Shown piece after piece: positions 15,905-36,747 of a stretch of 64,000 bases of DNA. The stretch covers positions 1,255,566 to 1,319,565 of the forward strand of contig MU004195.1 in NCBI GenBank assembly GCA_010093605.1, in the 5' to 3' direction. The DNA comes from Lophium mytilinum. Taxonomy: Eukaryota. The notes under the pieces are model-generated. The model was not told the DNA's origin and made no database searches. It saw only the letters and a list, made by a program, of their open reading frames with translations. The position numbers were made by a program, and so were the translations under genes. How positions within the stretch are numbered: position 1 is the first letter of the stretch; each line of letters starts with the position of its first letter.

Positions 15905-16801
15905 GGCGAATGTGAATATCAAGAGAGATGCAAATTCAGGTGCTGAACTTCGCTCGACTCAACCCAGGACCTTGCGCGAGCTCGCCCGCATTCAGGTCGC
16001 AACTCTATCTACTTTCCTTGCACAGCGCCAAATCGAACGCGTGCAAGGCTATTCGGGGCCCGGACACCCCCACAGCCGGACCAGGTTGTGCAAGCGCAGT
16101 GCGGGGCGCATTGGGGTACTAAACACCCCAGACTCTGTCCTGTAAGCTCGCGCACACTTCCAATCAGGGGGAGGTATTGACGATTCAAGGGCGCCAAGTG
16201 GCCACGTCCCAGGCCACGGTGCCACGTTTCTCCCCTGGGGTCTCGGGCTAGGAGAGGCGTTTGATTCACCGTTGAAGAGCCGAGAATGCGGGGTTTCGGG
16301 TTGATGCATGCCTCTTGATCACGCTGGGTGCTGTACGCTGGGTACGCTGGGTACGCCGGGGTATGTATGCTCCCGGGAGCCACGGACCAATTTCTCGAGA
16401 GGGTACACAAATAGTGGTAGGAATACTTCCAATCATCAGCTGGCTGGCTGACATAATGCAGAAGATTTTGTGCTTCACTGATGTTGACCCACCCAAGGTG
16501 TGACGTTATATTTGATTGGTTCGGCTGCGCTCACGTGACTTTAGGGCCGTACAAGTTTTGATTGGACCGGTAGGTCTAGTTGCGCCTTTATATGCTTCCT
16601 GTGTCTCCTTCGTCCTGACTGGCTCAGTTCACAGTCAGTCGAGATGCGGATAGCGGATGGCGCATATCCGTGTTCTGCAACCTCCATCACAAGAGCTCAG
16701 CCTTAGCACCTAGGCACAGACCACATCCCGACATGATGGATCCGACTCAACGTCCTCTGACACCCACAGCGGACTAATTTCACCCCTCCACCGGCGCAAT
16801 T

Positions 16802-18833
16802 CTACTTCTGCATATCGCCGATTTTCTCAAATTCGAACTCGCTGTCCTGCGTCTGCATCCCCACTGTAGACGTGAAGGCTTCCGGCTGGCGGTCCCCATT
16901 CGACAGCTTCGCGACGCCTTGTCCTGCCCCTGTGATGACGCCCACGATCGTCTTTGCGGCGTCCAGGTCTGCAACAGCGTCGCCTCTCCATGACACATGC
17001 CCGTCTGGACGTATGAGCACCAGCCGAGCGCCCCATACACCGTATGCGTGATCTTCCCCGTCCAGCTTGACATGCTTGATGGGAGTTGACGCCGCCTCGG
17101 CCGCTTGCAATACATGGCCTGATCCCCGCTCGCTGCCGTCGGCAAACTCCACCAAAGTAAAGTACTTGCCATAGAGGTCGAAGATAGGGCGCCCGTCCTT
17201 CAGGAAGACATGGGGAGCACGCATGCCAGGCCAGGTACTGGGGTGGTACGCCGTGGGGTCGAATTCTGGCGCCGGCGTCGACTCGTCGGGAATGCAAATG
17301 CTCGATTGGTATCGATATCCCATTTCGACTCCAAAGTCCTTGTTCTCGTTATCGTGCGTCTGGTAGTGTTCATCTAACGCCTTCCTTTTCTGCCGTCCTT
17401 GATCGGTGATGGAGTCGATGATATGCGGGTCGGCGCCGAGAATTTCGCCCACCTTGATATGCACACCGAGGTGCACGCCTGACCGCTCAACACTCATCAG
17501 CGCGACTGGTCGTCGGTCCTCTTCGTATGCCTGCAATAGTCCCGACTTCCCGGTACCGTTCATCACCATGCCTAGCTTCCATCCGAGATCGACCGCGTCC
17601 GCTATCCCCATGTTCATGCCATAACCGCCAGTTGGTATGTTTTGATGTGCCGCATCTCCCGCCAGAAAAACTCGCCCGAGTGGACTAACGTACTTTCGCG
17701 CGACCGCAATATGTGGGCGGTATGTCGACCGTACCAGGATCTCGTCGATTTTGATCTTATACAGCCCACCGAGACCACCGAAGACCTTGTATACGGCTTC
17801 TTCTGATCCGACGCCGTCAGAGCTAACATCCAGAGGGAAGTTCAAATGGCATGTCCATGTATCAACCTCGTCTTGGGCTATGCAGGCTCCGCCAAATCCA
17901 CCGGCCTCGGCTTGGAGGACGAATAAATGCCAGAATTGGCCTTGTTTACGAATACGCGCGAGATCCTTAGACTTGAAATGCACCAAAAGCACGTAGCCAG
18001 GGCTGTGGGTCCCTGTCAGCTTTACCTTTCTTTTCGGTGTCAGGTGTGGATGCACGACTTACATTGGTCCGCCATCTAGTGGCATTTTCAAGCTACGCCG
18101 AACCTTGCTTGATGCTCCATCGCAAGCACCGACGTACCTCGACTTGAAGATATGCCGCTTTCCAGTGGAAATATCTGTGACCGTAGTCTTGACGCCTTCT
18201 TCTAGTTCCTCGGCCCCTTCAACCTTCCATCCGAAACGCACATCCACGGCGGGATCGTTGTCGCAACGCTCCTTCATTATTTTTTCGAATAGTGCCTGCG
18301 ACAGTCTTTGATATGGTTCGAGTGGCTGAGTGCCATCGTTCTTTTCTTGGATGGTTTTTCGCCATTGGTCCACTCCAGGGAGTTTCCAGCTTGTAAGAGC
18401 CTCGGTTTTATCCAAACCACTGGATATTAGGACGGTGTAAGGTATTTCGGAGGAGACGCCTTTTATCGTGAGAAATCAGTACACAGACGCCAAATAGGCT
18501 TTGCAGCAAGAAGTCGTTTGACCATAATGGATAGTTTTGGGGTGTGGAAGCGCTGCTCACCTTCGGTCCTAATGAGCTCAGCTAGGCCGAGCTTTCGAAA
18601 CCATTCCATAGACCGGCAATTGGTCAAGTCCATCTTGGGCCATCTTTTCATGGCTGTCAGCCACCCCTGCAGCCACCACATCGAGGCAAGGACCGGACTT
18701 ACTTTGTTGTCGTATCATTTCTCTCCAGTAAAAGTGACTTAACACCATAGAACGATAAGACTGTCGCCAGGATAAGTCCAACAGGTCCTCCACCTGCAAT
18801 AAGGACAGTGTCTTCGGGCAGTGTATGTTCCAT
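16802..18833 (-). CDS. FAD-dependent monooxygenase (FAD_binding_3, PheA/TfdB/ApdD-like aromatic hydroxylase)
   Basis: VLIAGGGPVGL, WPKMDLTNCRSME, VGACDGASSKVR, VFLAGDAAHQNIPTGGYGMNMG, PGMRAPH, LVLIRPDGHVSWRG; multi-exon. Confidence 0.92.
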
Positions 18834-18923
18834 TACGAATGCTAGTTTTGCTGTCTTGCTCGAGAAGCACGACGGAACTGAGCTTCGACGTTATAAAGAC
18901 ATTTCGATTTTTATGTAGCCAAA

Positions 18924-18981
18924 ATGCTCCGAGACCCATGTGATGACTAGAGGTGCTCGGAGCATCGCTTTCCGGCTCCCG
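18924..18981. promoter_or_regulatory. Putative Zn2Cys6 sites in the divergent FMO/SnoaL promoter
   Basis: Perfect inverted repeat ATGCTCCGAG-N22-CTCGGAGCAT (18924-18965) followed by CCG-GCTC-CCG (18972-18981). Confidence 0.5.
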
Positions 18982-19242
18982 CATGGGGGCGTTTTGTTCT
19001 CTTTGGCCCTCATGATGCCCAGGTGTGCCCCACCCCCACGGTCGTCGTGGCTAGTCAGACTACGAGTGGAAGGTCCCGTTAATACTACCATCTCAGGGCT
19101 ACCTAACTGGGATGGCCGTCGTACGGATTCTGGGTTCAAATGCGTTGTCACATCCATCCTTTTCTTCTCTTTCATTGCTCACGATCTCTCTCGATCCTCA
19201 AGACAAGCCAGCTTCATTTGATCAAAGTGGTACCCTGTTACT

Positions 19243-19902
19243 ATGGCCTCTATATCCTGGCCTACTCCGGACTTCCCTAAGAAGGTCGAGGAACTCATAA
19301 CCGAGTTCTACTCCCTAGCCGACAGCAAGGAGGACACCACTCCGGAGAGGTTCGCCGCTTTGTTCGCCGAGGATGGGAAAATGTATGGATTGGCGGGAGC
19401 ATCTACGGGGCGAGCTGGTATGTTTACCGTCTCAGATCCACGCCACGATTTGTTTACCTTGTGGTGATCATCCGCGTTGCGCTGATGGCCAGATCATGCT
19501 TCCGAACCTTGGCGCCCTCGGTTCAATTCCTCCGAGATCATCAAAACTTCCCGTCCCATAATACTGACAATCTACGGTATAGATATTGCAGCCGCCCGAC
19601 CGAAGTCTTGGAATATGATCGCTTCACGGAAGCATCAGCCGGTGAAAGTTTACAGCTTTAAGTCTGATTACAGCGACGTCCTCGTCATGGGACAAATCTC
19701 TGCAACACTGACGAACGGCAACTCTGTCTCCGTCGAGTATATTGCGCAATTCGTACTCAAAGGCGATACCAGCGCAACTCCAGTTATTGCATCATATAAA
19801 TCTTGGGCTGTCAGAATCCACAATCTTCCCCTCTGCAAGCGAGTCCCGCTGACCCGGATACAGGACTCTGCTCCATGGTTCAAGGCCATGGGAGTACAAT
19901 GA
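19243..19902 (+). CDS. SnoaL-like / NTF2-fold small protein
   Basis: Three exons: ...ITEFYSLADS...FAALFAEDG...GRA|DIAAARPKSW...RKHQPVKVYS...YKSWA|DSAPWFKAMGVQ. The LFAEDG..GR..I pattern is typical of SnoaL-like proteins. Confidence 0.75.
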
Positions 19903-20140
19903 TTCAAAGGCGTTTCTTTCCGTCATACAGTAGCTAGCCGCATTATTCCCACTCGCAATTGAAGCGAATCGATGATTTTTCTTGGATCTTTACACACGAA
20001 TGGTATAATAGTCTCTGAATAGGGATGCCACATCGACTCGACCGCCAGGTACCGATGAAAACCTTGCAAACTCCCCCAAAAAGTTTATTTTGCAGTACAT
20101 CCATGTTTCTGTTGACAAAGCAGTGCAAGAAGTCTAGCTT

Positions 20141-22377
20141 CTATAACTTAGCGACCTCATCTACATCAACTTCCTTTGCCGCGGCCTCGACATCAAAATA
20201 CTTCTGATACAACCCCACGGCATCAGGGTTCGCGACCACGTTACTCTTGCTGTCTCGCCCACTAATCACGTTCTTCACCAATATCTCCAGCTTCTTACCC
20301 ACGTGCGAATACGGGATGTCGTCAACGTAGAAGACATACTTGGGCACATGTCGTCTACTCAGCTGCTTGCCAATCTCCGCCTTGAGTTGATCCTTGAGGG
20401 TTTGTGTCCGCTTTTGGCCTTGTGCCATCTTCAGGAACAGAATGACGGATTCATCGCGGTCTTGCGGCCGGCGCTGTCCCACACAGACGCTGTCGGCGAT
20501 GCTGTGGAAGAGGCGGACAACGGCGTAGATTTCGGCGCTACCGAAGCGGACGCCCGAGGGATTCAAGACGCCGTCGCTAATTAATTTCCGCGTTAGCTAT
20601 TGCAAATGTGGGTTCTCCCTCCTCTCCTCCGAAGCCACTTACGATCGCCCGAGCATCTGTATGCCGCCCGTCGTTGTCGAAATCCTAATCAAATCACCTT
20701 GGACCCAGACTTTGGGCCCAAACAAGTCGTAGTAAGCTTCTCGATACTTGGCGTCACCTCCGAGGCCCCAGAATGTGACCGGTTGACTGGGGAATGGTTG
20801 CCTCACTATCAGCTCTCCGGGCTCGTTGCTGGCATGTATGCTGACGCCTTCTGGATGGCTGGGGTCGAACACATCCACTGCCATTCCTAGCACTTTTGCC
20901 TGGATTTCGTCGGCATACAGAGGGAGGAGAGGTGAGCCACCGACAACTGTAAGTCATTAGAGAGAAACTTTCAAGAGCTCAGCTGACCGTAAAGCACTTA
21001 CAGGCGCACGAACAGTCTGTACCACCGCTTCCAGATATTAGCTGAACTTTAGAAGGAAAGCCCTTTGCATAGAACCATTCCACAACGTCTGGTGGAAGGA
21101 CCGATCCCGTTGATGTTACTTTCCGCAGAGCTGAAAGGTCGTGCTCATCCCGGGGACGCTTGTTGCTGTCCATGAGGTCGGTAAGGTACTTTGCAGATGT
21201 CCCAAAGACGTTGACTTTCAGCTTTGCGAGCAACTCTGGCAAGAACCCTACATCGGGGTAAAGAGGCGATCCAGAATACACTACCACGGCTGCTCCGGTT
21301 CCTAGGGCGGAGAGAACGAATGCCCACATTATCCATGCAGTTGTAGTATACTGGAACATCAGATCTCCTGGGCGTAAACCGATCTGGACTATGTAGTCCT
21401 TCTTCACCTGCAAAAGAACACCGCCAGCAGTGTGGAGTATGCATTTTGGTGCGCCAGTAGTTCCGGAAGAGTAGAAGATGAATGCGGGCTGACTGAAAGG
21501 TAGCTGTTCGAAGACCAGTTGCCGGCCAACCCCTTTGGCATAGAACTCTGGGAATGTGATCCCCTTCTCAATCGACGCAGCCTGCTTCGGATCCGAGGAC
21601 GTAAGCACGATATGCACCAGCTCCTCTCCTTGGGCAACCGTCTTCGCCCAGGTCTGCACAGTGCCCATCAGATCCCGAAGCTTGCCGTTATATATCACAG
21701 ACGTGTCCGAGAAAACGAGCTTGGGCTTCGTCTGTACCAGGCGATCCAAAATACCCTGAACTCCAAAATCCGGGGATACCGAAGACCAGATCGCGCCAAT
21801 TGATAGCGCCGCCAGACATAGGATGATGGGCTGCGCGTTATTCCCGATGACTGCGGCAACTCGATCTCCAGTCTTCACGCCCAGACTCCGCATTGCGTCG
21901 GCGCTTTTTTCGACGAAGTCGTACAGCTCGCGCCAGGTTATCACAGTAGCATCTAGCGATGCTTCGACGACTTCGAGGATTGCTCTTCCATTGGGGTCGC
22001 GGTTTAGCAGCACACTTCCTGCGAAGTTCATCTTTGCGCCCGGGAAGAATTTAGGCGACGGGTAGAGGTTTCCGCCATGCTGACTCCCTAAAGTGGTAAG
22101 CAAAGCTTAGAGTCATATCCGGGAACTATTTTGAGGGGCAACGGACAGGTTCGAAAGCTGCTCTTGGGGGAGCTGTTGCACGCATGTCTAGAAAGTCGAA
22201 CAGCGCCAGCCAGAAATCGCCCGCAGTATTGGGACTTATCGACCACGCGTGGAGCTCCGAGTAAGATTTCATGGATAGATGGTAGCGCTCATTTGAGTAG
22301 TCCCTGAATCTTGCCATCGCAGAGTCGTTCAGGTCTTCGTGCGAAGGTCGCCATATCGGAGCTCTTTGCTGCGCCAT
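20141..22377 (-). CDS. Acetoacetate-CoA ligase (acetoacetyl-CoA synthetase family, ANL superfamily)
   Basis: IWRPS, YSELHAWSI, FFPGAKMNFA, SPDFGVQGILDRL, YSSGTTGAPKCILH, QYTTTAWIMW, SGGTD, GRSDGVLNPSGVRFGSAEIY, GKKLE. Confidence 0.92.
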
Positions 22378-22658
22378 TTTGATTGTAGAGTGAGTAATTA
22401 GAGGACGCGAGAAATCGAATGGCTCGAAATAAAACAGAAATCGCAGACAGATTTAGAAACAGTTCAGTGATTGAGGTGTGGAGACTGAAAACCATCTGGC
22501 ACCTTCAAGAGCTATCCTCGCCAAATAGCTTCTTAAGCTCGAAGCTCCCTGGCCCACTTCTATCGACCAAAGCTCACAGCCGCTACAGAGAGGTCCTCGG
22601 ATCCTAAGCTCCTAGACCAATAAGATGTTCCAGATTTCGCTGCAGGGACAAGTTCGAC

Positions 22659-22712
22659 CCGAGCTCCGAGCTTAGTTTGGCTAGCTGGGGAAGAAGAGCA
22701 GGCCGAGCTCCG
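22659..22712. promoter_or_regulatory. Two identical CCGAGCTCCG sites in the divergent CoA-ligase/FMO promoter
   Basis: CCGAGCTCCG at 22659-22668 and 22703-22712; CCG-N4-CCG direct repeats are a known Zn2Cys6 site architecture. Confidence 0.6.
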
Positions 22713-22865
22713 GATCAGCTCGCCTCCCCGCGAACACTCGGCGGGCTACCTACACCTCCGACCAGCATTACCACAGCACTTCAGGTACAATTATCAAGAT
22801 GACTTACTTAATTCATTGCAAGCGAATTCGGCGATCTTCGTGCTTTGAGGTCACACATTTTCAAA

Positions 22866-24324
22866 ATGGCTAAGAAAGATCTCAACGTCATCATTGTCGG
22901 CGGAGGATTTGGAGGACTTGGTAGTGCGATTGAGCTCACGAGACATGGTTTCAAAGCTCATGTTTATGAAGCCTCTCCGGATCTTACTAGGCAGGGTAGG
23001 TCGACATCGAAAGCAATGTGATTCGGGTCACTGATTCCGGCTCTAGGCGATGTCATCATGCTGGGCTCGAACTGCACCCGTATTATAAAGAAATGGGGCA
23101 ACGTCTTAGACGAAATCCTCAAGATAAAGTCGCAACCAGATACGCTAGCCATCCAAGACAAGAATGGCAAGGTCATGCTCGAGCAACCGCTGCCGAAAGA
23201 GTTTGACGGATTCCCTAATATCTACACGAACCGGACTAAGGTGCAGAATTTTTGCTACGAGTACGCGAAGTCCATCGGCGTCAAGTTTACTTTCAACGCT
23301 CGAGTAAATGAGTACTTCGAGGAGGGCGACAAAGCTGGCATCGTCCTCAATGGGGAGAAGCTCACCGCAGATTTCGTCATTTCAGCGGATGGCGTGCATA
23401 GCAAAGGTCGTGCCTACGTCACCGGCGTAGCGGACAAAGCCCAAAAGAGTGGATTTGCGGTGTACAGATGCTGGTTCCCGATAAGCAAAATTGCTGATCA
23501 TCCTCTGACGAAGTACATTGCGGAGTCCAAGAAGGACATGTTCGCCATCTGGATCGCGGAGGATACGCACGCCATCCTTACCACCAACGTCAACCTCCAG
23601 ACTTGCACCGTATTTGCGACCCATAAGGACTACTCCGATATTGCGGAGTCGTGGCATTTGAAAGGGGATGTCAAGGAAATGGAGCGCGCGGTTGAAGGTT
23701 GGGATCCAAAGCTCATTCAGCTCGTCAAGTCGATCCCAGAGGATGGCTTGATTGATCATAAGCTACTGTGGCGCGATCCTGTGAAGAAGTGGGTGTCGAA
23801 TAAGGGCCGCGTTTGCGTAGTGGGCGACGCAGCTCACCCTCATCTGCCGACCTCCGGTACTGGCGGTGCATCGGCTATTGAAGACGGAGCAACGATTGCG
23901 GCATTGTTGGAGAGGACTGGAGACGTCCCGCTTGCACTGAGGTCGTATATGGCGCTGCGGCAAGTTTGACTCCCCTGGATCGTCGCAAATAGCTAACTGA
24001 TCGTGAAGATACGAGCGAACTGCATTGACTCAACGCATGGGCTGGGAAACGCGCCACAGATGGCATCAAACCGACTGGGATGAGGTGGCCAAGAACCCAG
24101 CTTTCTTGAAGCTCCCGCAGCCAGTGTGGTTGAACGGACATGATGCGGAACAGTATGCGTATGATAACTTCGACGCTGTCAGTGCGAATGTTCTAAAACA
24201 AGCACCTTTCACATCTACCAATGTGCCGGATGGTCATGTTCATGAGGACTGGACGATTGCAACAATGATGTCGGCGGAGGGCGAGAAGGCTGAGGCTGGG
24301 TTTTATGTCGTCAATAATGACTAG
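22866..24324 (+). CDS. FAD-dependent monooxygenase (group A, salicylate hydroxylase/OpS4-like)
   Basis: VIIVGGGFGGL, ISADGVHSK, SGFAVYRCWF, KLLWRDP, VGDAAHPHLPTSGTGGASAIEDG; two introns. Confidence 0.92.
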
Positions 24325-24715: not shown

Positions 24716-25849
24716 TCACTTGACCGTCTTTCCCGTTCCTCTCTCTTTCTTTAGTATATCAGTAATAGGCTGGTAGGCCTGATCCAACGCTTCCTGTGGC
24801 ACGCCAGTTCCCTCTACGGGTGTGTCTGGGTCGAATCCAGGCGGCGAAACGAACCATGTTCCGATCGTCCTCTCTCCAACTTTGCAGGTTTCGAAGACAG
24901 TTCCTCCGGGGTACTTGCCCTCCTTGATTATCTTCATGTATCCCTTCGCGACATCAATCGCATCGATGGCGATGTCATCGGTGTATCCGTACCGTGCTTG
25001 TTTCTCTGGGTGATTCAACCAGAGCGGGGTTCTTACAATGCTGAAGTAGTAGAAAGATTAGAGAGCTATGTTAGATGTTAAAGAGAGATAGTTTGACTGA
25101 CCCAGGTGCAATAGTGACGACTTTCACGCCCTCCAACCGATCCGTTTGGCCCATTGATCGAGTGAAGCCGATCAGGGCATGCTTTGTGGTGCAATACATG
25201 GGAGCAACATCCTGTCCCATATAGCCTGCCATTGAAGCCATGATGGCTACCACACCTTTCTTGTTCTTGCTGAGGAGAGCAGTGACGGCGATACGAGTGA
25301 GCTTCAGGGGGTGGTTGACATTGATGTCAACGTAGGCGTAGCGTTCATTCTCGTTGTCTTCCCAGTAATCTGACCACGGCTTTTCAAACGAACGACGTTA
25401 GTGGAGCTTCTTCTATATTACTCCGTTCATCTGGAATACTAGGTATGGGAAATTGGGATATCCCTCACCGGTTCGAAGACACCGGCTCCAGCGACGTAGA
25501 CATCAGGGACGTCTTCAAACTTCTCCTCCGACACCTTGACCAAATGCTTCAGCTCTGTCCATTTCGCTACATCGGTCTTTTGGAAGAAGACAGTTTTCGG
25601 GTTCGCTTTTACGAACTCATCGCCATCTGGCTGCAGATTGAGGTCTGCAATGATGACTTTGGCTCCTTCCGCAAGTACAAGCTTCGCAAGCTCGAGATGG
25701 ATGCCTTTGCTATAGTTAGTAAAATCGTTCTTGCTTCAAACTAGAGAAAATCACGGAATAAGCTTGAGACTGTTCTTACCCCCACCACCTCCAGTTATAA
25801 GCACGATCTTGCCATTGAGGTCAAAGTCGCCGACAGGACCGTGAGGCAT
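24716..25849 (-). CDS. Short-chain dehydrogenase/reductase (15-hydroxyprostaglandin dehydrogenase-like)
   Basis: KIVLITGGG..GI, VIIADL, AGAGVFEP, ASMAG, catalytic YCTTK, IAPG; multi-exon. Confidence 0.88.
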
Positions 25850-26040: not shown

Positions 26041-26050
26041 CCGGCCTCCG
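26041..26050. promoter_or_regulatory. CCGGCCTCCG cluster motif upstream of the SDR
   Basis: CCG-N4-CCG about 190 bp upstream of the SDR ATG; identical to the site at 36738. Confidence 0.5.
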
Positions 26051-26223
26051 ACTATGGGTGGGATCATTCCGAAAAGATTCTGGTCCCTCCCAAAACGAGA
26101 CGACCAAGCGACCGAGAGGGTGAGCGAATCAAATCTTCTCTTCCCCCATCCGCAGACGAAGTCCACGCATCACCTCTCCGATCTTCTGCTCCCATTTCAC
26201 ATCATAAGTCGCCAAGCGGCTAT

Positions 26224-27333
26224 CTACTGTCCCTTCCGCGCATGCGCCCTCTTCCTCTCAATATCGCCCTCGGCTAGCCACCGACTCGCCTTCACAAGCT
26301 GGATCATGTTAATAATCTGCTTGCCCGCCATGACGGGAAAGGAAGTAATAGCCAAGATCCAGGGGATAGTAGAGTCCATTTTGTTAGCGCTATAATGGAA
26401 AGGTTAGCACGTACAGACGCGCAAATCTTAGATTACGAAATTTTAGGAGGGGTAGCTTTTAAGTAAAGATAGATATTGGACACCACATTAGAGAAAGTCA
26501 TAGACGTACCGGGCATATTCCATTGCGCCTGCCGACCACGGACTTGCAAATACCATAGAGCGTTCTACTGGCGCAGGCTTCCCGACGGGCAAGCTTGCAA
26601 GGTTATCCGAGGTCTTTAGGGTAGGCGAGAGGTAGGGCGAGGAGAAGGAGAGGAGGTAGAGCGCGATAAAGAAGAGTTCGTTCAAGGCGCAAAAGATGAA
26701 AAGGACTTTCTGGGGGGCAGTATCAGTTCATCTGTGCCGCGGGGACGTAAAGTGAGGTAGGGCGGAAATAAGGCTTAGGATCCGACGCACCTTATTCGTA
26801 TAATACATCTTCAAGACCCAACTCCTGCTCTCATCAACATCCTTGTGGCTCCGCCCGCTTTCCCCCATGCTTAGCGTCGCGTACATGTGCATGTAATGGC
26901 TTGCCAGATCCAGACTAATAAGGCCTTGGAATATGATGCTCCACCGGGGGAACGCGCTAGCAAGGAAAACAAGCAAACAGGACGTGGTGCAGCGATCTGT
27001 TACCATGTCCAGTACGATGCCGAACTTCGTCTCCTGGTCAAAGTACCGCGCCGCCATGCCGTCTAGTGCATCAAGTAGGCAGGATGCACTGTAGAGGAGG
27101 GAGCAGGTCCGGGGATGGAGCGGCATATAGTAGAGGGAAGCGATAGTAAGGACAACGCGGGAGTAGCCTGGAAAGAAACTATAAGTTGGTAGGGTTGCAA
27201 ATAAGAATAGGGGTTTCGTACCGACTAGGTTTGGATAGAAGAGGAAAATGTTCTCTTCTCGCTCTTGGGTTTGCGATCGAGCGGGCCTCATAGTGATGCC
27301 ACTGCCGTTTGCCAATGGCCGTGGGCCCGCCAT
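26224..27333 (-). CDS. PIS1: Phosphatidylinositol synthase (CDP-DAG-inositol 3-phosphatidyltransferase)
   Basis: ENIFLFYPNLVG, CDP-alcohol motif DALDGMAARYFDQETKFGIVLDMVTDR, LDLASHYMHMY, KQIINMIQLVKASRWLAEGD; stop at 26226-26224. Confidence 0.95.
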
Positions 27334-28078
27334 GGTAGATACACCAGTAAGGTCAAGGGCGGAAAATCCTCCCTGGAAACTAGCTTGAGCTTGTCCGACT
27401 AACACAATGATATGTGGCCTTGATTCGTGACTTGGGGATGTATTTTAAGACCCCTCGTTGAAACTTGACAATTTCTAGTGAGGTAAGTTGGAACCTGTGC
27501 CGCGGTAGTGAGCCAGGCACCCAGGGTGAGCACCTGCAGGTGGACCTAAGCCAAACTCAGCCACTGTGGCGTATGGTCACGTGAGCATATGGGGTTAAGC
27601 AGCGTGCATATTGGGGTATTCGCCAGCTAATCCGGGGTCTATATTTGAGAGGCAACTTTGCGCATTCACGGCGTGTATCAATCTACCATGATGGATTTGC
27701 AGGTTCCGAGTGATTACGAGCACACGTGGGCAGGCGTCTGTCGATCTTTAAGGAGAAGGATTTAGGAGGGATCATAGAAGAGTAGGTCGCTGATTCGACA
27801 ATCGATCAGGGAACATCATATATATCAAGCGGGCAACATCTGCCCACATGCTCTTGAAAGTTGAACCGAAGTTCGGGGAAATTCCAGATGCAGGGGCGGG
27901 AAGGAACTTAAAGTGGGGTATATGTAGGTTGCTTAACTCGTGCAATCTCCCCGAGGTCAATTTGCAGAGCTCGCGGAGAAATGTCAAGATTTTGACTGTG
28001 TCAAGAGTACTGAATTTATTCTGCAGGGTGACTGACGATAGTGACCCTCTTCCAGACGAGAAGCTGCTTGTAAAGCTC

Positions 28079-28887
28079 TCATCTTATAACCTTGCTAACC
28101 TTGGTCTCGATAATCATGGGTTTGCCCTCTTCAACGACGAAGTGAGCTGACCCCACAAACAGGTCGTGTTCAAGCGATTTAAGGTGCTCAGCTCCAGTCT
28201 AGATGGACAATTAGCTTTTGCATTCGAATGCTGTGATCCTGTTTACCTCAATTTTGATTTGAGTAACTGGTAGATAATTAGCCCTGCGCTTCAATGGTTC
28301 CAATGGTCACTTACATGCGTCTCCAAAGTCCGTTGTTGTCGCATCTGGGCTTTGGAGCAGAATCTTGACGAACTGCTCGGTTAGGCGAATAATTCCGGTG
28401 TAAGAGTACGAGAGGAACTACGGATCTCGTTAATACAGATATGTTTATTCGCGATCTTAACTGACTGCTCCGTCTACGGTTCTAGAAAAAGACGAGAAGT
28501 TAGCTAGGCCGTTCCGAAAAACGTCCAATGCCCCTTACTTTATCGCAGCGTTCACATTGATCCGTGCGTGCGTCTGTCCTGGTTCAGGGCGAACATAGTC
28601 CGACCCGTAGACAACTTCGCCGTCAATAGCTGGCTCGAAACCAGGCTCGCTCTTAATCGATCCTGTCACGATTGGCTGACAGGCCCGTTCAGCGTCGAGA
28701 AACGGACAAATTCAAAGGTGAGGCCTACTGTGATTTGGAGCCCACCACCGGTTGCGACACTTCCTGAAGGCTTATCAGTGAAGAAGGAGAGACTTTAACC
28801 GCGATGTATGTACCTACCGACATCATAAGGTATTGTTGCTTGGAGAAGAACAGTAAAGGCAGGCTGGAGGGAAGGGAAGCCGGACAT
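28079..28887 (-). CDS. DUF3237 / UPF0311-family protein (~166 aa, 7 exons; absent from the ORF track)
   Basis: Manual splicing: MSGFPSLQPAFTVLLQATIPYDVG|SVATGGGLQIT|PIVTGSIKSEPGFEPAIDGEVVYGSDYVRPEPGQTHARINVNAAIK|TVDGA|FLSYSYTGIIRL...TTTDFGDAF|TQIKIE|TGAEHLKSLEHDLFVGSAHFVVEEGKPMIIETKVSKVIR*. All six introns are GT-AG and in phase. Confidence 0.85.
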
Positions 28888-29209: not shown

Positions 29210-29908
29210 TTACTCCAACCTGATGTTCTCTTCTATTTTCAAGCCACTAGTGAGATCCGCCTTTTGTGTAGCCATATTCACCGGGAACGAGAAATGCTCA
29301 TGCACATACTTCCAGTTGCCATCATCCCTCTTACGGACGAGACTCGTAGTGCGAAAAGTGAAATCAAAAGCGTTTCCATCAGCAGCTACTCCCCAATATC
29401 GTTGCAACGCAGTTGCATATCCAAAAGTCTCCGTTACAGCCGTGATCTCGAGGTCCTTAAACGCGATCTGTGCGTCCGCGAGATAGGGAGTGATGTTGTC
29501 ATAGTGGGGACGGAATCCAGGCCGTTGGACCGATCCCATCAGGTCGAAGTACATGGCCTCATCGAGGTCGTAGAACTTCTTCCCCCAATTGGGATGGTCT
29601 TTACAGTCGAAGTTACAGAAGTAGGCAAAGTCTTTGTAATGTTGAAGAATCTCCTCCTCAGCCCTCGCAAGTTTGGGATCGTGGTCCTAGCGTTTTGCTT
29701 AGTAAGTAGCTCGGTTCGGCTAAACTTCCCCTTTCCCTCAACGTTCTCCCATATCGTCACCACTCACTTTGTTTGCAGGTCCCGGAAGATCTTTGTGGAG
29801 CTCCGGGATGGTTGTCAGCGTTTTCTGCCACTCTAGTCAGCCTACTTGATGTCTGGATAGGTCCGGTATGTTCAATTCATTGCTCACCTCGTCCTTGAAG
29901 TCAGACAT
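29210..29908 (-). CDS. SnoaL_3/NTF2-like (ketosteroid isomerase-like fold) protein
   Basis: Three exons, MSDFKDE|KTL...NK|DHDP...; C-terminal FTFRTTSLVRKRDDGNWKYVHEHFSFP signature. Confidence 0.82.
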
Positions 29909-30268
29909 AATGATATCAAACGCTGTGTCGTTCTTTTTCCATCATTGTGTCCTCGGGTCAGCCCATCATTAAGACTCGAACCGGAGTACCACATCAGTAG
30001 CCGCGTAAAACTGAAGCCGGGGCAATAGCCTTGTCCTGAGCTCCGGGGAACCCACATTACGTCTAACCCAGCTCCCCGAATGGATCGACTTAGCCTGCGG
30101 AAGGCCGGAGAAAGCGCCCGCGATAGGTTGGAGGCTCTTTAGTATGGTGTGGATATGACACGTGTGGTCGTGTGCATCTACATTCATCTTGCGTAGTGAC
30201 CCTTTACATCGGCGAGTTTGGAAGAACCAGGGCGTGAAGAGCTAAACGATAGGGCACCGCAATCGATC

Positions 30269-32029
30269 ATGGCTATCCTCACGACCATTGAAAGTTTTCT
30301 CCCAGCAAAATCTCAGGTACCAGGAGGCTATATAACCTACTTGGCTGCCTCATTTGCGGTAAGTTTCCCAACTACGGCCATCATCACGTGTATCTAACGA
30401 AACGCATTAGCTTTTGATTGCGGTATACAAAGTATTAACGTATGACAAACGCCGTAAAAGCTTGCCACCTGGCCCGAAAGGGCTGCCCTTTATCGGGAGT
30501 CTCCTTGACTTCGCAGACGCCAACAAGCTTCCTGAAGTATGCTTAGGCTGGGCCCAGAAGTATGGCAAGATCTCTTACGCGAAGATTGGTGGTACCGATT
30601 TCGTCTTCCTTAACACACCTACGGTTGTCAAGGACCTTATGGACAAGCGTGGACAAAAGTATAGCGATCGACCACATATGCCAATGGCATTCGATGCCGT
30701 TTCCAACCAGAAACGCCAGTTTTTCATGCCATATGGTGACATCTGGCGTAACGTGCGAAAAATCAGCCACGCAGCTCTGAACCTCAAGACATCTTCCTCA
30801 TACAAGCCGGTGCAAGATTTTGAATCCAAGCAAGTGGTATATGACCTTCTGCATTCCAAGAATGATACCGACTTTTACGACATCAACCGACGGTACTCCA
30901 ACAGCTTGATCATGCTGATCACTTATGGCCGTCGCGTAGCCACTATGGAAGACCCGGCATTCCAAAAGATCTTCAAAGTTCTTGAGCATTTCACCGCAAT
31001 GGCTGAGCCCGGTGCTTGGTTGGTCGACGCATTCCCGTCCCTTGCAAAACTACCATCATGGATGGTGCAGAATTGGTGGAAGATTGGCCGAGAATGGCAC
31101 GCAGAGGACTCCGCAATCTACCTTGGTTTCTACCGCGAGCTGGTCGAGAAAGCGAAGAACGGCACTGCGCCCGAGTGTTTTGTTCGGGACTTCTACGAGA
31201 GCAATCCCGAAAAGAATGGCGTCGACGAGGAGGGTGCTGCTTACGCTGCTGGTACGCTGGTAGAGGCAGGGAGCGAGTCTACGTCTACTGCGATCAACAG
31301 CTGGCTTCTAGCATGCTTGCTCTATCCCGAAGTTGTCACGAAGGCACAAGCAGAGCTTGACCGCGTGGTTGGCCATGATAGAATGCCTACTTTCGAAGAC
31401 GAAGATAATCTGCCTTATATCAGAGCGATGGCCAAGGAAACTCTCCGCTGGCGACCGATCACCAAGATTGGCGTCAGTCATTCCACTACTGAAGACGACT
31501 GGTACGAAGGCTACTTCATCCCGAAGGGATCAGTTGTCGTTCTTAACTGGTGGTGAGTTGACACAGCAAGAATGTTCTGTTTCCTTTGACTACAAACTTA
31601 CGCACTTTTAGGTCAATCCATTTTGACGAGAAATTCCACAAAGACGCTCAAGCCTTCAACCCTGACCGCTACGTCAACGACCCTCTTTCCACAGCCGAAT
31701 GCCTTAATGCCGCCGACCCCAACGCGCGAGATCATTACACCTACGGAGCCGGCCGTCGGGTCTGCTCTGGTATTCATGTGGCTCAGAACTCGCTTTTCAT
31801 CAACATGGCACGGACACTTTGGGCTTTCAACGTGAAGAAGGCAAAAGGCCCTGATGGTAGAGAGGTGACACCTCCAGGAACCATGGAAGACGGTTTCCTG
31901 TGTGTACCAAAGAAATTCGCGTGTCACTTTGAACCTAGAAGCCCAAAACACGCCAAGATCGTGGAAGAATCCTGGATCGAAGCGGAGAAAGAAGGCTTGA
32001 GCTGGCTAAGGACCAAGCATAGGCTGTAA
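30269..32029 (+). CDS. Cytochrome P450 monooxygenase
   Basis: PPGPKGLPFIG, I-helix AGTLVEAGSEST, KETLRW, FNPDRY, heme motif YGAGRRVCSG; two introns. Confidence 0.95.
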
Positions 32030-32483
32030 GCTATTCTGGAAGACACATTCCATCACTGCATTACGAGAAGTGTGATGGCATATTGTTTTGAAGCTGAGTT
32101 GATTGAGTGCAAGCGGTGGTATTACTAATATTAGTCTCATTCACAGAAAGAGAGAGCTATGATAGAGTACCTATTCGACCGCTTTCACCTTTAATGCCTA
32201 AATCAATGAACGTGTGCTTTGTGCTATTGTGTATCCTCCAATGTTGGTGTTGACTTCAATTTATTTGCGGCTAGCTGAATATATCCCGCTATTCAATTCA
32301 CGGTCCAATCAACGGGCTCCACTTTTATTCCTTCACAACCGGGCATCATACTTCGAAATTTCTCTACCATTACTCCTGAACCCTGACTACCCCTCACTTC
32401 GGCATCAAAGAGCTTGGGGTGAAAGAGGGTCAACCTGCGTCTCATTCTCCATCTATTTACGCTCTTGGCCGGCGGGCATAATT

Positions 32484-32493
32484 CCGGGCTCCG
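32484..32493. promoter_or_regulatory. CCGGGCTCCG cluster motif upstream of the intronless RDRSWG gene
   Basis: CCG-N4-CCG about 300 bp upstream of ATG 32791; a GCGGAGG-N10-CCTCCGC inverted repeat follows at 32621-32644. Confidence 0.5.
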
Positions 32494-32790
32494 AGATACC
32501 AGTTTACATCCACTATACCCCAGTCCGTCACAACAGCTTTCCTTCTTCGAGCTACTTCGAGTTCAAGATCACGTACCGAGCTCAGGGTAGCACGGGATAC
32601 AGCCATTGGTAACGAATAATGCGGAGGACAAGATCAACCTCCGCGGATTCCGGGGTTGAGTTATAGCGATCTAATCGAAAAGTCAAGCATATAGCTCTCT
32701 AACTCTCAATACTAAACGTCAACCTCAAGTCACATTTCCCTTTCTTCTCATCTGAGCAAAGTAGTATCACGATCCCTCAATCTCTTCACC

Positions 32791-33867
32791 ATGCCAACCC
32801 AATACGTCCCCCCAGAAGCCGACTACTGGCTCCCCGTCCCGCCCCCCGGCGAAACATGGCACACCCACACCATCCACACGCACTACTTCGGCTGGAGCAT
32901 CCCCTCCGAAAAGCTCGGCTGCTTCATCTACGTCCGCGCCCAGCCACATTTCAAGCTCTGCCTTGCGGGCGTCTCCATCTTCCGCGGCATGAACAACCTG
33001 CGGCCCCTCGACTGCGAGCACTCCAACATCGTCAACACCCTGCCTTGGCCGACGGTCACGCCGAGCGGCGAGGGTGGTTCCATGAAGCTCGAGACGGAGA
33101 ATGGGCTGAGCATCGAGTTTCTGGAGCCGGGCCATAAGATGCGGATTGTGTATAAGAGCAAGGACGGCGCGACGCATTTCGATGTCACGCAGACCGGGCT
33201 TTGTCCTGCGCTGCCTAGGGGTCATGTGATGGCGGGCGAGGACCGTGATAGGCGTGAGGGGCAGAAGCCGGGTGGGTTGGAGCAGTTGATGCATTGCGTG
33301 GGCGACGTGACGCTGAATGGGAAGGAGTACAAGATCGACTGCTCCGCATCGCGGGACCGGTCGTGGGGTCAAGTGCGAACGGAAGACGAAGTCACTTTTC
33401 CCCCCATCGGTTGGTCGCCCATGGCATTCGGAAAAGAGCTCTCCTTCAACCAAGTCGGGATCGAGGATTATCAAAAGAGCACCCCGGATTGGGAGGGCGT
33501 GTTCAAGTATGATAAGAGCAAGCCGTCGCATCACTTTTCGTGGCTGGTGAAGGATGGCACGGAGGTGAGGAATGTTATAAAGGTGCATAGAAGGGTGCTT
33601 GAGTTTCACCCGCAGTTGCATTCGGCGATAAAGCAAGAGATTGAGTTTGAGGATGATAAGGGAGAAAAATACTTCATCAAAGGAGAGGCGATTGCCGTTG
33701 CTCAATTGCCCTCTTGGCCGAATAACGTCTTCGTGGACAGCGTGTACAGATGGGAAGATGATAAGGGGAGGGTCACCCATTGCGCTTATCAAGAGGCGTG
33801 GTACGCAAGATATCAGCAGTTTGTGAAAGGGTTGTTGGATATCAAGCCGAAGCAGGCAATCCCGTAG
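32791..33867 (+). CDS. Intronless 358-aa bacterial-type hypothetical protein (RDRSWG motif; DUF7064/DUF7065-like, probably CrtC/tocopherol-cyclase-like beta fold)
   Basis: Single exon with a good start context (CACCATG); motifs HTIHTHYFGWSIP, EQLMHCVGDVTLNG, SRDRSWGQVRTE. No kinase motifs. Confidence 0.75.
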   Translation: MPTQYVPPEADYWLPVPPPGETWHTHTIHTHYFGWSIPSEKLGCFIYVRAQPHFKLCLAGVSIFRGMNNLRPLDCEHSNIVNTLPWPTVTPSGEGGSMKLETENGLSIEFLEPGHKMRIVYKSKDGATHFDVTQTGLCPALPRGHVMAGEDRDRREGQKPGGLEQLMHCVGDVTLNGKEYKIDCSASRDRSWGQVRTEDEVTFPPIGWSPMAFGKELSFNQVGIEDYQKSTPDWEGVFKYDKSKPSHHFSWLVKDGTEVRNVIKVHRRVLEFHPQLHSAIKQEIEFEDDKGEKYFIKGEAIAVAQLPSWPNNVFVDSVYRWEDDKGRVTHCAYQEAWYARYQQFVKGLLDIKPKQAIP

Positions 33868-34467
33868 GGCGTCTAAAAGCAATGAAAGGCGTTCTGAACA
33901 TACATGACATTTTAAACGACTGAACTCAGCGCGTTTGTTACTCGTTCTTCCTCATGTCCATTCGCAGAATGCAAGTCTCTTGTGCGAAAGTACTGAAGTT
34001 AGGAGGTATCCTCCTTATGATAGTGTCTTTTGAGCCTAAGGTTTGAGTGAAGGGTCGAGGTCATACGGAATAGAAACAGTAATTTATATCACTGCAACAT
34101 CGATAAGCCATAGTTTCGAGCGTGAGTATTGAGGTAGCTGGAGAACAGAACAAGCCATGAGGTTTCTTCGGTTAGGTACACTGGCGAGCGACCTTTGTCA
34201 CCCACTTTGTCTTTCTGAGCATTTGCTAGGAAAATGAAACCTGTCAATACATGATGAACCTTCTTTAGCGTTCTTTGGAGCTCCAATGTTTCAAAACTTT
34301 CCAATGCTTGATGGACACGTTAATTCAAATTGCATCTCGCTCGCTAATGATAGTTCGCACCTGACTGCCGGAGATAATACGACTACATGTAGACTAGTCT
34401 TCCCATTCATAGCACTAGGAAAATTCGCTTACCGACATTCTATATAAACAGTGTGTTGTCATTATAC

Positions 34468-36582
34468 CTATGGCTTCTTCTCCTTCGAGACGAAAACCGT
34501 CTCGAAGAACTCCTCTGTAAAGTTCCCATCCGCATCCAGTGACTTCTGGGCCTCTTTCCAGGAGTCTCGGATGATCTCCACCCTGCGTTGGTCGCGAGGC
34601 TCGATCACAGCGCTATTTCTTGTTAGCTCGCGGGTAGAGGACGCTCCTCCTAGGATAGAGTACTTACGGGTAGGGTACGGGGCGAACGATGAAGCCCTGG
34701 GTGACTTCATCTTGGTTGATCGGGATAGGTACGCCGGCACTATCAAGCTTGCGGGAGAATTTGAACCCCCACAAGAGGCGGGAGACAGCGGTGAAGAGAC
34801 CTCGTTCCGCAACATGGAAGCCAGGGCATACGCGGCGGCCAGCACCAAACGTGAAATGTGGGCGCTTGCTCGAATCGGGATCGATACCGTAATTATCACT
34901 CAGCGTGTTCTCCGCACTGTGACGAGAGGGGTCAAACACCCGAGGATCGTTTTTGACGTTGTTGTTTAGAGTCCAAACATTGATGAACATGGATGCGCCT
35001 TTGGGTATTAGATATCCCTTGTAAATGTCGTCCTTTAGTAGCGAGTGCGGTACTGCAGCACTTAGAGTCGTGGGCATCCCTACTAAAGTTAAGATTGACA
35101 CACTGGAATGTTGGCAGACTTCATACATCTTAGCGACTCCTCGATGACAGCGCGGATATAGGGCAAGTTCTCCCGGTCTTCCCAGACCGGGAGTCGATCT
35201 GGTCCTACGACCTGATCAATTTCACGTTGCGCTTCTGCCTGTACCTCTGGGTAAAGGATCATAGCTTTGACGAATCCCAGCATAGTATTCCATTGCGTAT
35301 CTCTAGTTTCTATTAGCATTGAGTCTCATTGGTACGAAAAATTGAATCACGAACGTGGCTGCGCCGAAGCCATGAGCAGCATTGTTTGCTATCTCAACAT
35401 CGGTCAGTCGATCTTTGTCTTCGCTGAGAAGCATGTCACGTATAAAACCTGGAAGTTCATTATTCTTGAAGATCGGACCATAAGCGGGTACGTTAGCTTA
35501 CTTGGATACACTTTGCCTTCTTGGATGCTGGTCTTTGCGCCCTCCATAAGCTGCATGAATAAGTTCTCTTCGATGACCCTAATTCGTGCCAGCAGCTGCT
35601 TGTAGGGCATTAGGAATGTCGGACAGTAGCGGTAGAATGGTCGGAGAAACGGGAAAAAGTCGACGAGTTGCAGATTCGCGGCCTCACTTGTCAGATCCAT
35701 CCACTTCCTTCGGATTAGCAGGTATTGAGAGGAGGCTGATCATGTGACTTACATCCATCAAGTCCTTAACTCTTCCCCCACTACTCGTCGTCCTGAAGCC
35801 GTAGAGCACCGTGGAAGCTACACTAGTAGTGTACCGTTGCAAGTGACGAGAAAAATCATCGGGCACATCCAGCATTTCGTTTAGCAGCTGAGTGCTGTCG
35901 AACGCCTAAGATACATCAGCCTGAACTATGCAATACGGGCTAGACGAAACATACCTGATAGGGAATGTACTGATTTGCGACCGTTTTGTTTAAGCGCAGA
36001 TGGTACATTTTGCGTTGACGTCTCCAAACATCGTCATTACTGATTGCATGTTAGTGATCCGTCTGATGAGAAAATCTCAGCATCATATTTTACTCTCGAA
36101 ACGCAATATTCATGTTGCCCCCGAACTCGCGAATGAACAAGTCAGGACGAGCAGCATAGGTGTGGCCGCGTTTCTCCAATAGATCCTTGACGACTGTTTC
36201 ATCGTTCATGAGGACCATGGTCTGACCCGCCAACTTCAAGGTCATAATAGGCCCATCTGTTTTTCTATGTTAGACTGCAACGCTGAAAATGGGTACCACG
36301 ACCATTTCTTACATTCCTGAGCCCATTCCCTGAATTTGAAATGAAAGTCTTTCAGTGGCATCTGGTGGAGGTTACCAAGAATAGGGATTGTGGGTGGCCC
36401 TGTCCATCGTGATTAGAGCGAGCAAGGTAATGCTGGATACCAACATGCTACTCACCTGGAGGCATATTTTTGGGCCTCATTCCATAGTTCAACACCTTGT
36501 ACCCTACGAACGCTCCAATAATGGCGATAGCGAGCCAATACACATACGGAAACTCTGAGGTGGTGTTCTGAAGTAGCCCCAT
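34468..36582 (-). CDS. Cytochrome P450 monooxygenase (intron-rich, PatH/PatI CYP619-like)
   Basis: N-terminal TM then [58 protein letters not shown]. Confidence 0.92.
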
Positions 36583-36737
36583 GATTGGTTCAATTAGAAA
36601 AAAGGGCTTTACGAATGCTGTAATATGGGCTACACATGGGACCTATCGAGGCCACTGTGTTCGATATACGGTTGTCGTTGTGGTTGATCTGCAAGTCGGA
36701 GAGCTCGGTACAGCCTGCTTCCTCCCCGGCAAGCCTT

Positions 36738-36747
36738 CCGGCCTCCG
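36738..36747. promoter_or_regulatory. CCGGCCTCCG cluster motif upstream of the second P450
   Basis: CCG-N4-CCG about 155 bp upstream of ATG 36582. Confidence 0.5.

What the first reader, a model, noticed from the sequence alone, without database searches (positions are those of the whole stretch)
16054..36747. Shared CCG-N4-CCG motif links both halves of the cluster into one putative regulon
Seen: CCGAGCTCCG (22659, 22703), CCGGCCTCCG (26041, 36738) and CCGGGCTCCG (32484) all fit CCGRSCTCCG and all lie in promoters of cluster genes. Variants occur at 18972 (CCGGCTCCCG), 30036 (CTGAGCTCCG) and 16054 (CGGGGCCCGG, reverse orientation, upstream of the TF itself, suggesting autoregulation). With equal base frequencies about 0.5 hits of CCGRSCTCCG are expected in 64 kb on both strands, although the consensus was derived post hoc. 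I noticed none in the housekeeping promoters by eye. Known: Zn2Cys6 factors bind CGG/CCG triplets at fixed spacing. Inference: this is the binding site of the resident TF.
Basis: partly seen in the sequence, partly recalled or inferred. Interest (0 to 1): 0.75.

Follow-up and report, generated by a model that had tools for sequence, protein, structure and literature searches.

The report
Fungal gene-cluster promoter switch sequence
A short repeated DNA word sits in front of most genes of a fungal detoxification-type gene cluster and is probably the docking site of the regulator encoded in that cluster; this is an ordinary kind of switch, though for a regulator family and pathway that we found no study of.

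Summary
All eight sites are at the stated coordinates. A sixth exact hit (23847) is coding and was missed. In nine upstream regions of a 12-gene, backbone-less oxidative cluster (Mytilinidiales-type fungus), CCG-N4-CCG occurs 14 times against 2-3 expected. It is the best of 63 CGG dyads (0 of 400 shuffles reach it). The published Tac1/Znc1 core CGG-N4-CGGA occurs 8 times against 0.5. The locus is the densest CCGRSCTCCG spot among 345 of 362 genome hits. Without the Zn2Cys6 prior the signal is modest (50 of 175 random sets give an equal de novo motif; left-to-right transfer failed). Refined unit: YCCG-N3-YCCG, about 130-330 bp from start codons. The resident regulator has a complete Zn2Cys6 domain and travels with the cluster's MAK1-like monooxygenase in distant fungi, so it is the likeliest binder (about 0.65). 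Binding and conservation in orthologous promoters could not be tested. The variant sites (16054, 18972, 30036) and autoregulation are weaker. The scan has not reported this motif on other DNA. Verdict: real, new member of a known kind, moderate interest.

The parts
22659..22668 (+). exact element CCGAGCTCCG in the divergent AACS/FMO2 promoter (about 198 bp before FMO2, 282 bp before AACS)
22703..22712 (+). second exact element 44 bp downstream; the only such pair with a 10-40 bp gap in the genome
26041..26050 (+). exact element about 192 bp upstream of the SDR gene
32484..32493 (+). exact element about 298 bp upstream of the DUF7064 gene
36738..36748 (+). exact element (reads as CCG-N4-CCG on both strands) about 156 bp upstream of P450 b, 829 bp from Chz1
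16054..16063 (-). 1-mismatch variant (YCCG-N3-YCCG) about 150 bp upstream of the TF; candidate autoregulatory site
18972..18981 (+). 2-mismatch variant (fits YCCG-N3-YCCG) in the divergent FMO1/small-gene promoter
30036..30045 (+). 1-mismatch variant (first triplet CTG) in the divergent SnoaL_3/P450 a promoter
32576..32585 (+). 1-mismatch variant upstream of DUF7064 (new, weak)
32644..32654 (-). YCCG-N3-YCCG upstream of DUF7064, non-consensus spacer (new, weak)
12571..12580 (-). 1-mismatch variant 866 bp upstream of the VOC gene (new, weak)
23847..23856 (+). exact consensus inside the FMO2 coding sequence; probably incidental
12967..15904 (-). Zn2Cys6 transcription factor: six cysteines over three exons, linker, coiled coil, Fungal_trans domain
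11115..11705 (-). VOC/glyoxalase-family gene with an in-frame stop at codon 34
16802..18833 (-). FAD monooxygenase 1 (aromatic-ring hydroxylase type; RebC/dichlorophenol monooxygenase-like)
19243..19902 (+). small gene; SnoaL/NTF2-like label recalled, no Pfam match on two exons
20141..22377 (-). acetoacetate-CoA ligase-like enzyme (AACS)
22866..24324 (+). FAD monooxygenase 2, MAK1-like
24735..25849 (-). short-chain dehydrogenase
26200..27333 (-). CDP-alcohol phosphatidyltransferase (PIS1 label recalled): housekeeping gene splitting the cluster; no CCG-N4-CCG upstream
28040..28887 (-). small multi-exon gene (DUF3237-like label recalled, no Pfam match on one exon); no element in its 322-bp upstream region
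29210..29908 (-). SnoaL_3 protein
30269..32029 (+). cytochrome P450 a (start codon 30269, first intron 30358-30409)
32791..33867 (+). intronless DUF7064 protein; model resembles 25-phosphosteroid lyase
34468..36582 (-). cytochrome P450 b

Best explanation
The element is the upstream activating sequence of the resident Zn2Cys6 regulator. Two YCCG half-sites (CGGR on the other strand) repeat head to tail with a 7-bp period (CGG-N4-CGG, preferred spacer RSC). A homodimer of the TF would bind them about 130-330 bp before the start codons, in either orientation, and switch on the divergent gene pairs and single genes on both sides of the inserted housekeeping gene when an inducer is present. The inducer is probably a plant-derived aromatic or terpenoid compound that the P450s, flavin monooxygenases, SDR, lyase-like protein and CoA ligase break down or detoxify. 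Shown: the sites, their enrichment and confinement, their position, an intact DNA-binding domain, and conserved TF-enzyme linkage. Inferred: that this TF binds, that it activates, the dimer geometry, autoregulation, and the substrate class.
For: CCG-N4-CCG: 14 observed against 2.1 expected from non-coding background and 3.0 from trinucleotide-preserving shuffles. It is the best of 63 CGG dyads, reached by 0 of 400 shuffles and 1 of 150 length-matched random non-coding sets. The literature pattern CGG-N4-CGGA (10.1101/320028, passages), not derived from these data, is 8 against 0.54 and takes in 16054 and 18972. YCCG-N3-YCCG is 9 against about 1 (genome rate 4,883 in 43.4 Mb). Leave-one-region-out with a CCG seed gives Fisher p 0.0013, above all 20 null sets. 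Unseeded searches return the same word as top motif. Densest locus in the genome: 6 in 15 kb, next best 3, among 345 of 362 hits (partly circular). None in 3 convergent regions of the cluster or upstream of the inserted housekeeping gene. The TF has a complete C-X2-C-X6-C-X5-C-X2-C-X6-C cluster (read). Its homologues share contigs or near locus tags with FMO2 or DUF7064 homologues in Zopfia, Pyrenochaeta, Paraphoma, Cadophora, Aspergillus carlsbadensis, Dactylonectria and Cladophialophora.
Against: Without the Zn2Cys6 prior the signal is not exceptional: 48% of 150 random sets have an equally strong dyad when all triplet pairs are allowed, 50 of 175 give an equal or better EM motif, and unseeded leave-one-out gives p 0.057. 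Left-to-right transfer failed (p 0.84), and N4 is not the best dyad in the right half alone. Plain CCG-N4-CCG is also mildly raised in non-cluster regions (6 against 2.1). Only 5 of 12 genes have an exact site and one gene has none. The two paralogous TF modules in the genome show no N4 enrichment (3 against 1.9 and 1 against 1.3). The genome holds 356 other exact hits, so the word alone does not define targets. The background was a crude ORF-masked 169 kb with lower GC (0.47 against 0.51).
Confidence: 0.65

Rival explanations
1. The element is real but is read by another Zn2Cys6 factor encoded elsewhere (a xenobiotic-response regulator with Tac1/Znc1-like specificity, or a heterodimer with a paralogue), so the cluster is part of a wider regulon.
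For: The architecture equals the Tac1/Znc1 core. The genome has 23 matches to the TF's middle exon, itself included. Two loose YCCG-N3-YCCG sites lie 250-345 bp upstream of an unlinked kinase-lyase fusion gene on C5.
Against: No other genomic locus has more than 3 exact hits in 15 kb. The resident TF is intact and conserved beside these enzymes. The cluster has no transporter of the Tac1 target type. The C5 sites have different spacers.
Confidence: 0.15
2. Chance plus post hoc selection: GC-rich promoters of a catabolic cluster, rich in CCG and CreA-type words, give a few similar decamers with no dedicated function.
For: Unseeded tests are not significant. CCG is 1.4-fold and the CreA consensus (recalled, SYGGRG) 50 against 35 enriched. 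4 of the 8 sites touch a CYCCGS word (read).
Against: Shuffles that keep CCG counts still give family-wise p below 1/400. CTCCG not matching CreA is 15 against 7 (p 0.001). The pre-defined Tac1 core is 8 against 0.76 in shuffles. Sites lie close to cluster start codons even in long regions.
Confidence: 0.15
3. The functional unit is a monomeric half-site or the left-anchored word YCCGAGCT, and the N4 direct repeat is only the best-looking subset.
For: The unrestricted 10-mer search ranks GTCCCGAGCT/TCCCGAGCTC first, in 6 of 9 regions (1 of 80 shuffles, 3 of 93 random sets). SCTCCG is enriched in the cluster and in both paralogous modules (18 against 8.9 for the paralogues together, p 0.003).
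Against: In the paralogues the excess is mostly CYCCGS, which overlaps the CreA consensus; non-CreA CTCCGW is 13 against 9 (p 0.13). The TF has a coiled coil after the linker, which suits a dimer.
Confidence: 0.05

Closest known systems
Candida albicans Tac1/Znc1 drug-responsive element, core CGGNNNNCGGAN (10.1101/320028, passages read; CGGN4CGG in 10.1101/2025.05.04.652153, passages)
   Same: Direct repeat of CGG with 4-bp spacing, often ending CGGA; 8 matches against 0.54 expected in the cluster promoters; proposed Zn2Cys6 homodimer site.
   Different: Spacer here is A-G-S-Y, GC-rich. Targets are clustered oxidative enzymes, not ABC transporters. No yeast protein was among the 66 TF homologues found, so orthology is not indicated and shared spacing may be convergent.
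Cluster-specific regulator sites in fungal gene clusters, the principle behind CASSIS (reviews PMC6781578 and PMC9335490, passages)
   Same: A shared promoter word confined to one cluster that encodes its own Zn2Cys6 factor.
   Different: No PKS/NRPS/terpene-cyclase backbone gene was found among the long ORFs scanned. The cluster looks catabolic and is split by a housekeeping gene.
Pterocarpan hydroxylase (MAK1) cluster class, model 4 with P450s and a transcription factor (10.1101/184242, passages and section 9)
   Same: MAK1-like monooxygenase, P450s and a TF clustered, in many Pezizomycotina.
   Different: No cis-element appears in the passages read. Assignment of this locus to a model needs the supplement, which was not available. 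Substrate unknown.
Leu3/LeuB site CCG-N4-CGG (PMC6221358, passages)
   Same: 4-bp spacing; CCGAGCTCCG is two bases away from the palindrome CCGAGCTCGG.
   Different: Everted, not direct, repeat; 0 copies in the 9 regions. The one 'CCGN4CCG' in that paper is in a supplementary-table title, whereas the text has CCGN4CGG.
Hap1 direct repeat CGG-N6-CGG (PMC10954478, passages)
   Same: Direct-repeat recognition by a Zn2Cys6 dimer.
   Different: Spacing 6; CCG-N6-CCG occurs only 3 times here.

Membership tests
Cluster-specific Zn2Cys6 binding site | CGG triplets at one fixed spacing and orientation, over-represented in the cluster's promoters | tested here: met
   14 against 2-3; best of 63 dyads, 0 of 400 shuffles
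Cluster-specific Zn2Cys6 binding site | confined to the cluster, absent from flanking and housekeeping promoters | tested here: inconclusive
   exact word 0 in 8 control regions but only 0.22 expected; plain dyad 6 against 2.1 there; densest locus in the genome, partly circular
Cluster-specific Zn2Cys6 binding site | resident TF with complete Zn2Cys6 domain, linker and dimerisation helix, linked to the cluster across species | tested here: met
   splicing of the TF exons was read from sequence, not from RNA
Cluster-specific Zn2Cys6 binding site | sites conserved in orthologous promoters | not testable with these tools
   no orthologous promoter obtained
Cluster-specific Zn2Cys6 binding site | binding by the TF and TF-dependent expression | not testable with these tools
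   needs EMSA/DAP-seq and a knockout
Tac1/Znc1 DRE-type element | core CGG-N4-CGGA | tested here: met
   8 against 0.54; 8 against 0.76 in shuffles
Tac1/Znc1 DRE-type element | bound by a Tac1/Znc1 orthologue | tested here: inconclusive
   66 TF homologues; the named ones are filamentous ascomycetes; no direct comparison with Tac1 was made
Tac1/Znc1 DRE-type element | controls drug-efflux transporter genes | tested here: not met
   no transporter among the cluster genes
Leu3/LeuB site | everted CCG-N4-CGG | tested here: not met
   0 in 9 regions
FarA site (CCTCGG, recalled) | CCTCGG enriched | tested here: not met
   4 against 1.75, P 0.10
CreA site (SYGGRG, recalled) | sites match SYGGRG | tested here: not met
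   4 of 8 sites touch one (read); it does not explain the dyad or non-CreA CTCCGW, 15 against 7
Pterocarpan hydroxylase (MAK1) cluster class | MAK1 homologue clustered with P450s and a TF | tested here: met
   against section 9 of 10.1101/184242
Pterocarpan hydroxylase (MAK1) cluster class | homologue groups of a specific cluster model | not testable with these tools
   supplement unavailable; journal version not held

The most novel reading that the evidence does not exclude
The CGG-N4-CGG element marks the regulon of an undescribed, widespread fungal pathway for plant terpenoid or steroid-like extractives that borrows the bacterial phosphorylate-then-eliminate route. A P450 makes a tertiary alcohol, an unlinked APH-family kinase (contig C5, with two related YCCG-N3-YCCG sites in its promoter) phosphorylates it, and the clustered DUF7064 protein, whose model resembles 25-phosphosteroid lyase, eliminates phosphate to an alkene. 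The same TF family, with a conserved DNA-binding domain and linker, would then read this element in dozens of root-, wood- and hydrocarbon-associated fungi.
Probability: 0.12. Interest if true: 0.7.

Novelty: new member of a known kind. Interest (0 to 1): 0.38.

Why it matters
It gives a testable binding site for a widespread Zn2Cys6 family for which no characterised member turned up here (homologues in Dothideomycetes, Chaetothyriales, Helotiales, Hypocreales). It also draws the bounds of a backbone-less cluster that backbone-anchored mining would miss, including genes on both sides of a housekeeping insertion. If confirmed, it would be a filamentous-fungal use of the CGG-N4-CGG spacing that our searches found described only for Candida Tac1/Znc1, and overexpressing the TF would give a direct route to the pathway's substrate. 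The principle itself, a resident regulator with its own promoter word, is well known.

Tried and rejected
Orthologous promoters: a metagenome scan with a DUF7064 alignment returned 32 loci, none closer than 61%. Loci that look fungal by introns or neighbours (L008, L009/L010) share at most two genes with the cluster and show no CCG-N4-CCG upstream of them. Sequencing runs: no holder on record as RNA. The three laid runs are spliced contigs, and the listed pieces and differences of the two ~95% relatives are in or next to coding regions (226 difference rows and 82 pieces not shown), so no footprinting. Run X3 does not cover 32320-33789; this says nothing on expression. Paralogous modules (C15 start, C16) as an independent test: no N4 enrichment; matrix scores p 0.18 and 0.04; half-site excess confounded with the CreA word; no significant alignment between paralogous promoters, so an apparent shared 10-mer was dropped. 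Unseeded motif discovery recovers the word but is not significant against random sets. Leu3/LeuB, FarA, AflR, Mrr1, CGG-N7-CGG and CGG-N8-CGG patterns are not enriched. Kinase-partner test: 1 of 2 APH-DUF7065-DUF7064 genes has two loose sites, none exact. An error was corrected: searches ran the SnoaL_3/P450 a region to 30441, but the true start codon is 30269; the four counts rerun were unchanged. Spliced full-length proteins were not built, so homology rests on single exons and the TF's full reading frame is read by eye. Literature: searches for the spacing (4 papers listed), the exact decamers (one unrelated virus paper, listing only) and the cluster found no description of this element; the library lacks most subscription papers. 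No complex prediction was run.
Full report
Setting. The window is from an intron-rich fungal genome (G000, 43.4 Mb). The nearest named homologues of two cluster proteins are from Mytilinidion, Lepidopterella and Glonium, so the host is a Mytilinidiales-type Dothideomycete. Between Ctf4 plus one unannotated gene on the left and Chz1/IWS1 on the right lie 12 genes: VOC/glyoxalase (11.1-11.7 kb), a Zn2Cys6 TF, FAD monooxygenase 1, a small gene, an acetoacetate-CoA ligase-like enzyme, MAK1-like monooxygenase 2, an SDR, then a CDP-alcohol phosphatidyltransferase (housekeeping, not counted), a small multi-exon gene, SnoaL_3, P450 a, DUF7064 and P450 b. The labels PIS1, DUF3237-like and SnoaL-like (19.2 kb gene) are recalled; the last two had no Pfam match on the exons tried. 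No backbone synthase was seen among the 43 ORFs scanned.

Observation. All eight strings are where stated. A sixth exact CCGRSCTCCG is in FMO2 coding sequence (23847). The genome has 362 exact hits, 0.53 per 64 kb. I defined nine upstream regions by gene bounds (5,862 bp after correcting the P450 a start to 30269). They hold 5 exact hits against 0.16 expected, in 4 of 9 regions, and 14 CCG-N4-CCG against 2.1, in 7 of 9. One site is counted on both strands and one is low-complexity.

Is it more than post hoc chance? With the prior that a Zn2Cys6 site is a CGG dyad (63 orientations and spacings), N4 direct is the best dyad. 0 of 400 trinucleotide-preserving shuffles reach it, and 1 of 400 without the VOC region. 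1 of 150 random non-coding sets reach it. A pattern taken from the literature, CGG-N4-CGGA, gives 8 against 0.54 and 0.76 in shuffles. Leave-one-region-out with CCG seeds gives Fisher p 0.0013 and beats 20 of 20 null sets. Among 345 of 362 listed genome hits this locus is the densest (6 in 15 kb, next 3), and the 22659/22703 pair is the only one with a 10-40 bp gap; both are partly circular. Against: with all triplet pairs allowed, 48% of 150 random sets do as well, mostly through low-complexity DNA. Unseeded EM returns TCCCGAGCTCCGA as top motif but 50 of 175 random sets score as high. Unseeded leave-one-out gives p 0.057. An unrestricted 10-mer search ranks the overlapping word TCCCGAGCTC near the top, in 6 of 9 regions, and its best score is reached by 1 of 80 shuffles and 3 of 93 random sets. 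The signal is therefore real under a well-founded prior and modest without it.

Anatomy. Twelve of the 14 dyads have a pyrimidine before the first CCG (12 against 1.3) and nine fit YCCG-N3-YCCG (genome rate 4,883). The unit is thus a YCCG half-site repeated with a 7-bp period, preferred spacer RSC. The eight reported sites lie 128-326 bp from the start codons of the cluster genes that they flank, in both orientations relative to the gene. In the 993-bp P450 b/Chz1 region the site is 156 bp from the P450 and 829 bp from Chz1. All six exact hits are on the + strand, which I cannot tell from chance. There is none in three convergent regions of the cluster or upstream of the inserted housekeeping gene. 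The 28-kb gene has no site. The variants are weaker: the 1-mismatch class is 4 against 1.1 (P 0.025), and 18972 has two mismatches, although it and 16054 fit the Tac1-type core.

Both halves? Three exact promoter sites lie left and two right of the housekeeping gene. N4 is the best dyad on the left (2 of 300 shuffles). On the right it is second (5 against 1.3, single test 7 of 1000 with one site double-counted; family-wise 0.2). A de novo matrix from the right predicts the left (p 0.03); from the left it locked onto low-complexity DNA and failed (p 0.84). Support is moderate.

Which factor? The resident TF has six cysteines at canonical spacing across three exons, then a linker and coiled coil (read). 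A Zopfia homologue keeps this region closely and aligns to Gal4. TF homologues share contigs or near locus tags with FMO2 homologues in Zopfia, Pyrenochaeta, Paraphoma, Cadophora, Dactylonectria, Aspergillus carlsbadensis (313232/313239) and Cladophialophora psammophila (00788/00790; 04328/04338/04345), and with DUF7064 homologues (11613/11623). Leu3/LeuB, FarA, AflR and Mrr1 patterns are not enriched. Two paralogous VOC+TF modules in the genome lack N4 enrichment; the C15 paralogue has a different linker, and zinc-cluster specificity is attributed to the linker (PMC10954478, passages). Their half-site excess overlaps the CreA word, so they neither support nor refute. Orthologous promoters could not be had.

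Expression. Contigs of three runs skip introns of the SDR, the 28-kb gene and P450 b, and one run also those of P450 a. Spliced transcripts therefore exist in this sequence type and in two relatives of about 95% identity. Co-regulation cannot be read from contigs.

What is regulated? FMO2 is MAK1-like and FMO1 an aromatic-ring hydroxylase. The gene set resembles the pterocarpan-hydroxylase class of candidate plant-compound degradation clusters (10.1101/184242, section 9); the supplement needed to assign a model was not available and may bear on novelty. The DUF7064 model (pLDDT 89) best matches 25-phosphosteroid lyase (TM 0.63, E 2.5e-12), then pericyclases and kievitone hydratase. Homologues lie near APH-family kinases in 4 of 7 bacterial loci and 2 of 4 other loci whose neighbours were scanned, like the kinase-lyase pair of anaerobic sterol degradation (PMC11061730, passages). 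The cluster has no kinase. The genome has two APH-type genes with DUF7065-DUF7064 domains. The C5 gene has two YCCG-N3-YCCG sites 250-345 bp upstream with non-consensus spacers; the C1 gene has none. At the genome rate, two in 1 kb of promoter has P near 0.006, or 0.02 for 2 kb (my arithmetic). This is a lead only.

Comparison and verdict. It works like a cluster-specific Zn2Cys6 site (reviews PMC6781578 and PMC9335490, passages) and has the architecture of the Tac1/Znc1 element, but membership in the Tac1 regulon type is not met on targets and is untested on orthology. Searches for the spacing, the decamers and the cluster (listings only except where noted) found no description. Earlier scan notes hold nothing on this motif elsewhere. 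My estimates: real functional element about 0.85, bound by the resident TF about 0.65, autoregulation about 0.4. New member of a known kind; interest 0.38.

Noticed in passing
window 11115-11705 (-): The VOC/glyoxalase gene has an in-frame TAG at codon 34, while its two paralogues on C15 and C16 are open; pseudogene or assembly error. It also lacks a close exact element.
   Followed up: partly
window 32791-33867: The DUF7064 model's top structural match is 25-phosphosteroid lyase; homologues often neighbour APH kinases and TetR regulators in bacteria. The cluster itself has no kinase.
   Followed up: partly
L116:1606-4620 (G000:C5 about 461.6-464.6 kb) and L119:4045-6845: Two fungal genes carrying APH-like kinase plus DUF7065-DUF7064 domains; on C5 this is one 906-codon open frame with two YCCG-N3-YCCG sites upstream.
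   Followed up: partly
L100:3500-10000, L101:1-3900 (G000:C15 start) and L105/L106 (G000:C16): Two paralogous modules of VOC + TF with SDR, cyclase and SnoaL-like gene, or with FMO and P450; the promoter at L100:9560-9730 holds a dense run of about seven CTCCG half-sites.
   Followed up: partly
cluster and paralogous upstream regions: The CreA-type word SYGGRG (recalled) is enriched in all three modules (50/35, 35/18, 16/8.5) but not significantly in control regions (37/30), which may point to carbon catabolite repression.
   Followed up: partly
window 26200-27333: A housekeeping phosphatidyltransferase gene sits inside the cluster; one RNA contig runs from it across the 26041 site into the SDR gene, so that site may lie in its 3' UTR.
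   Followed up: no
window 18922-18970: Inverted pair of a 10-bp word containing GCTCCG, 22 bp apart, just before the 18972 site in the FMO1 promoter.
   Followed up: no
window 6030-6780: Degenerate tandem repeats (about 65-bp and about 180-bp units) in the intergenic stretch after glutamate synthase (seen).
   Followed up: no
window 30269-30410: P450 a starts at 30269 with a first intron at 30358-30409; the ATG at 30442 is out of frame.
   Followed up: yes
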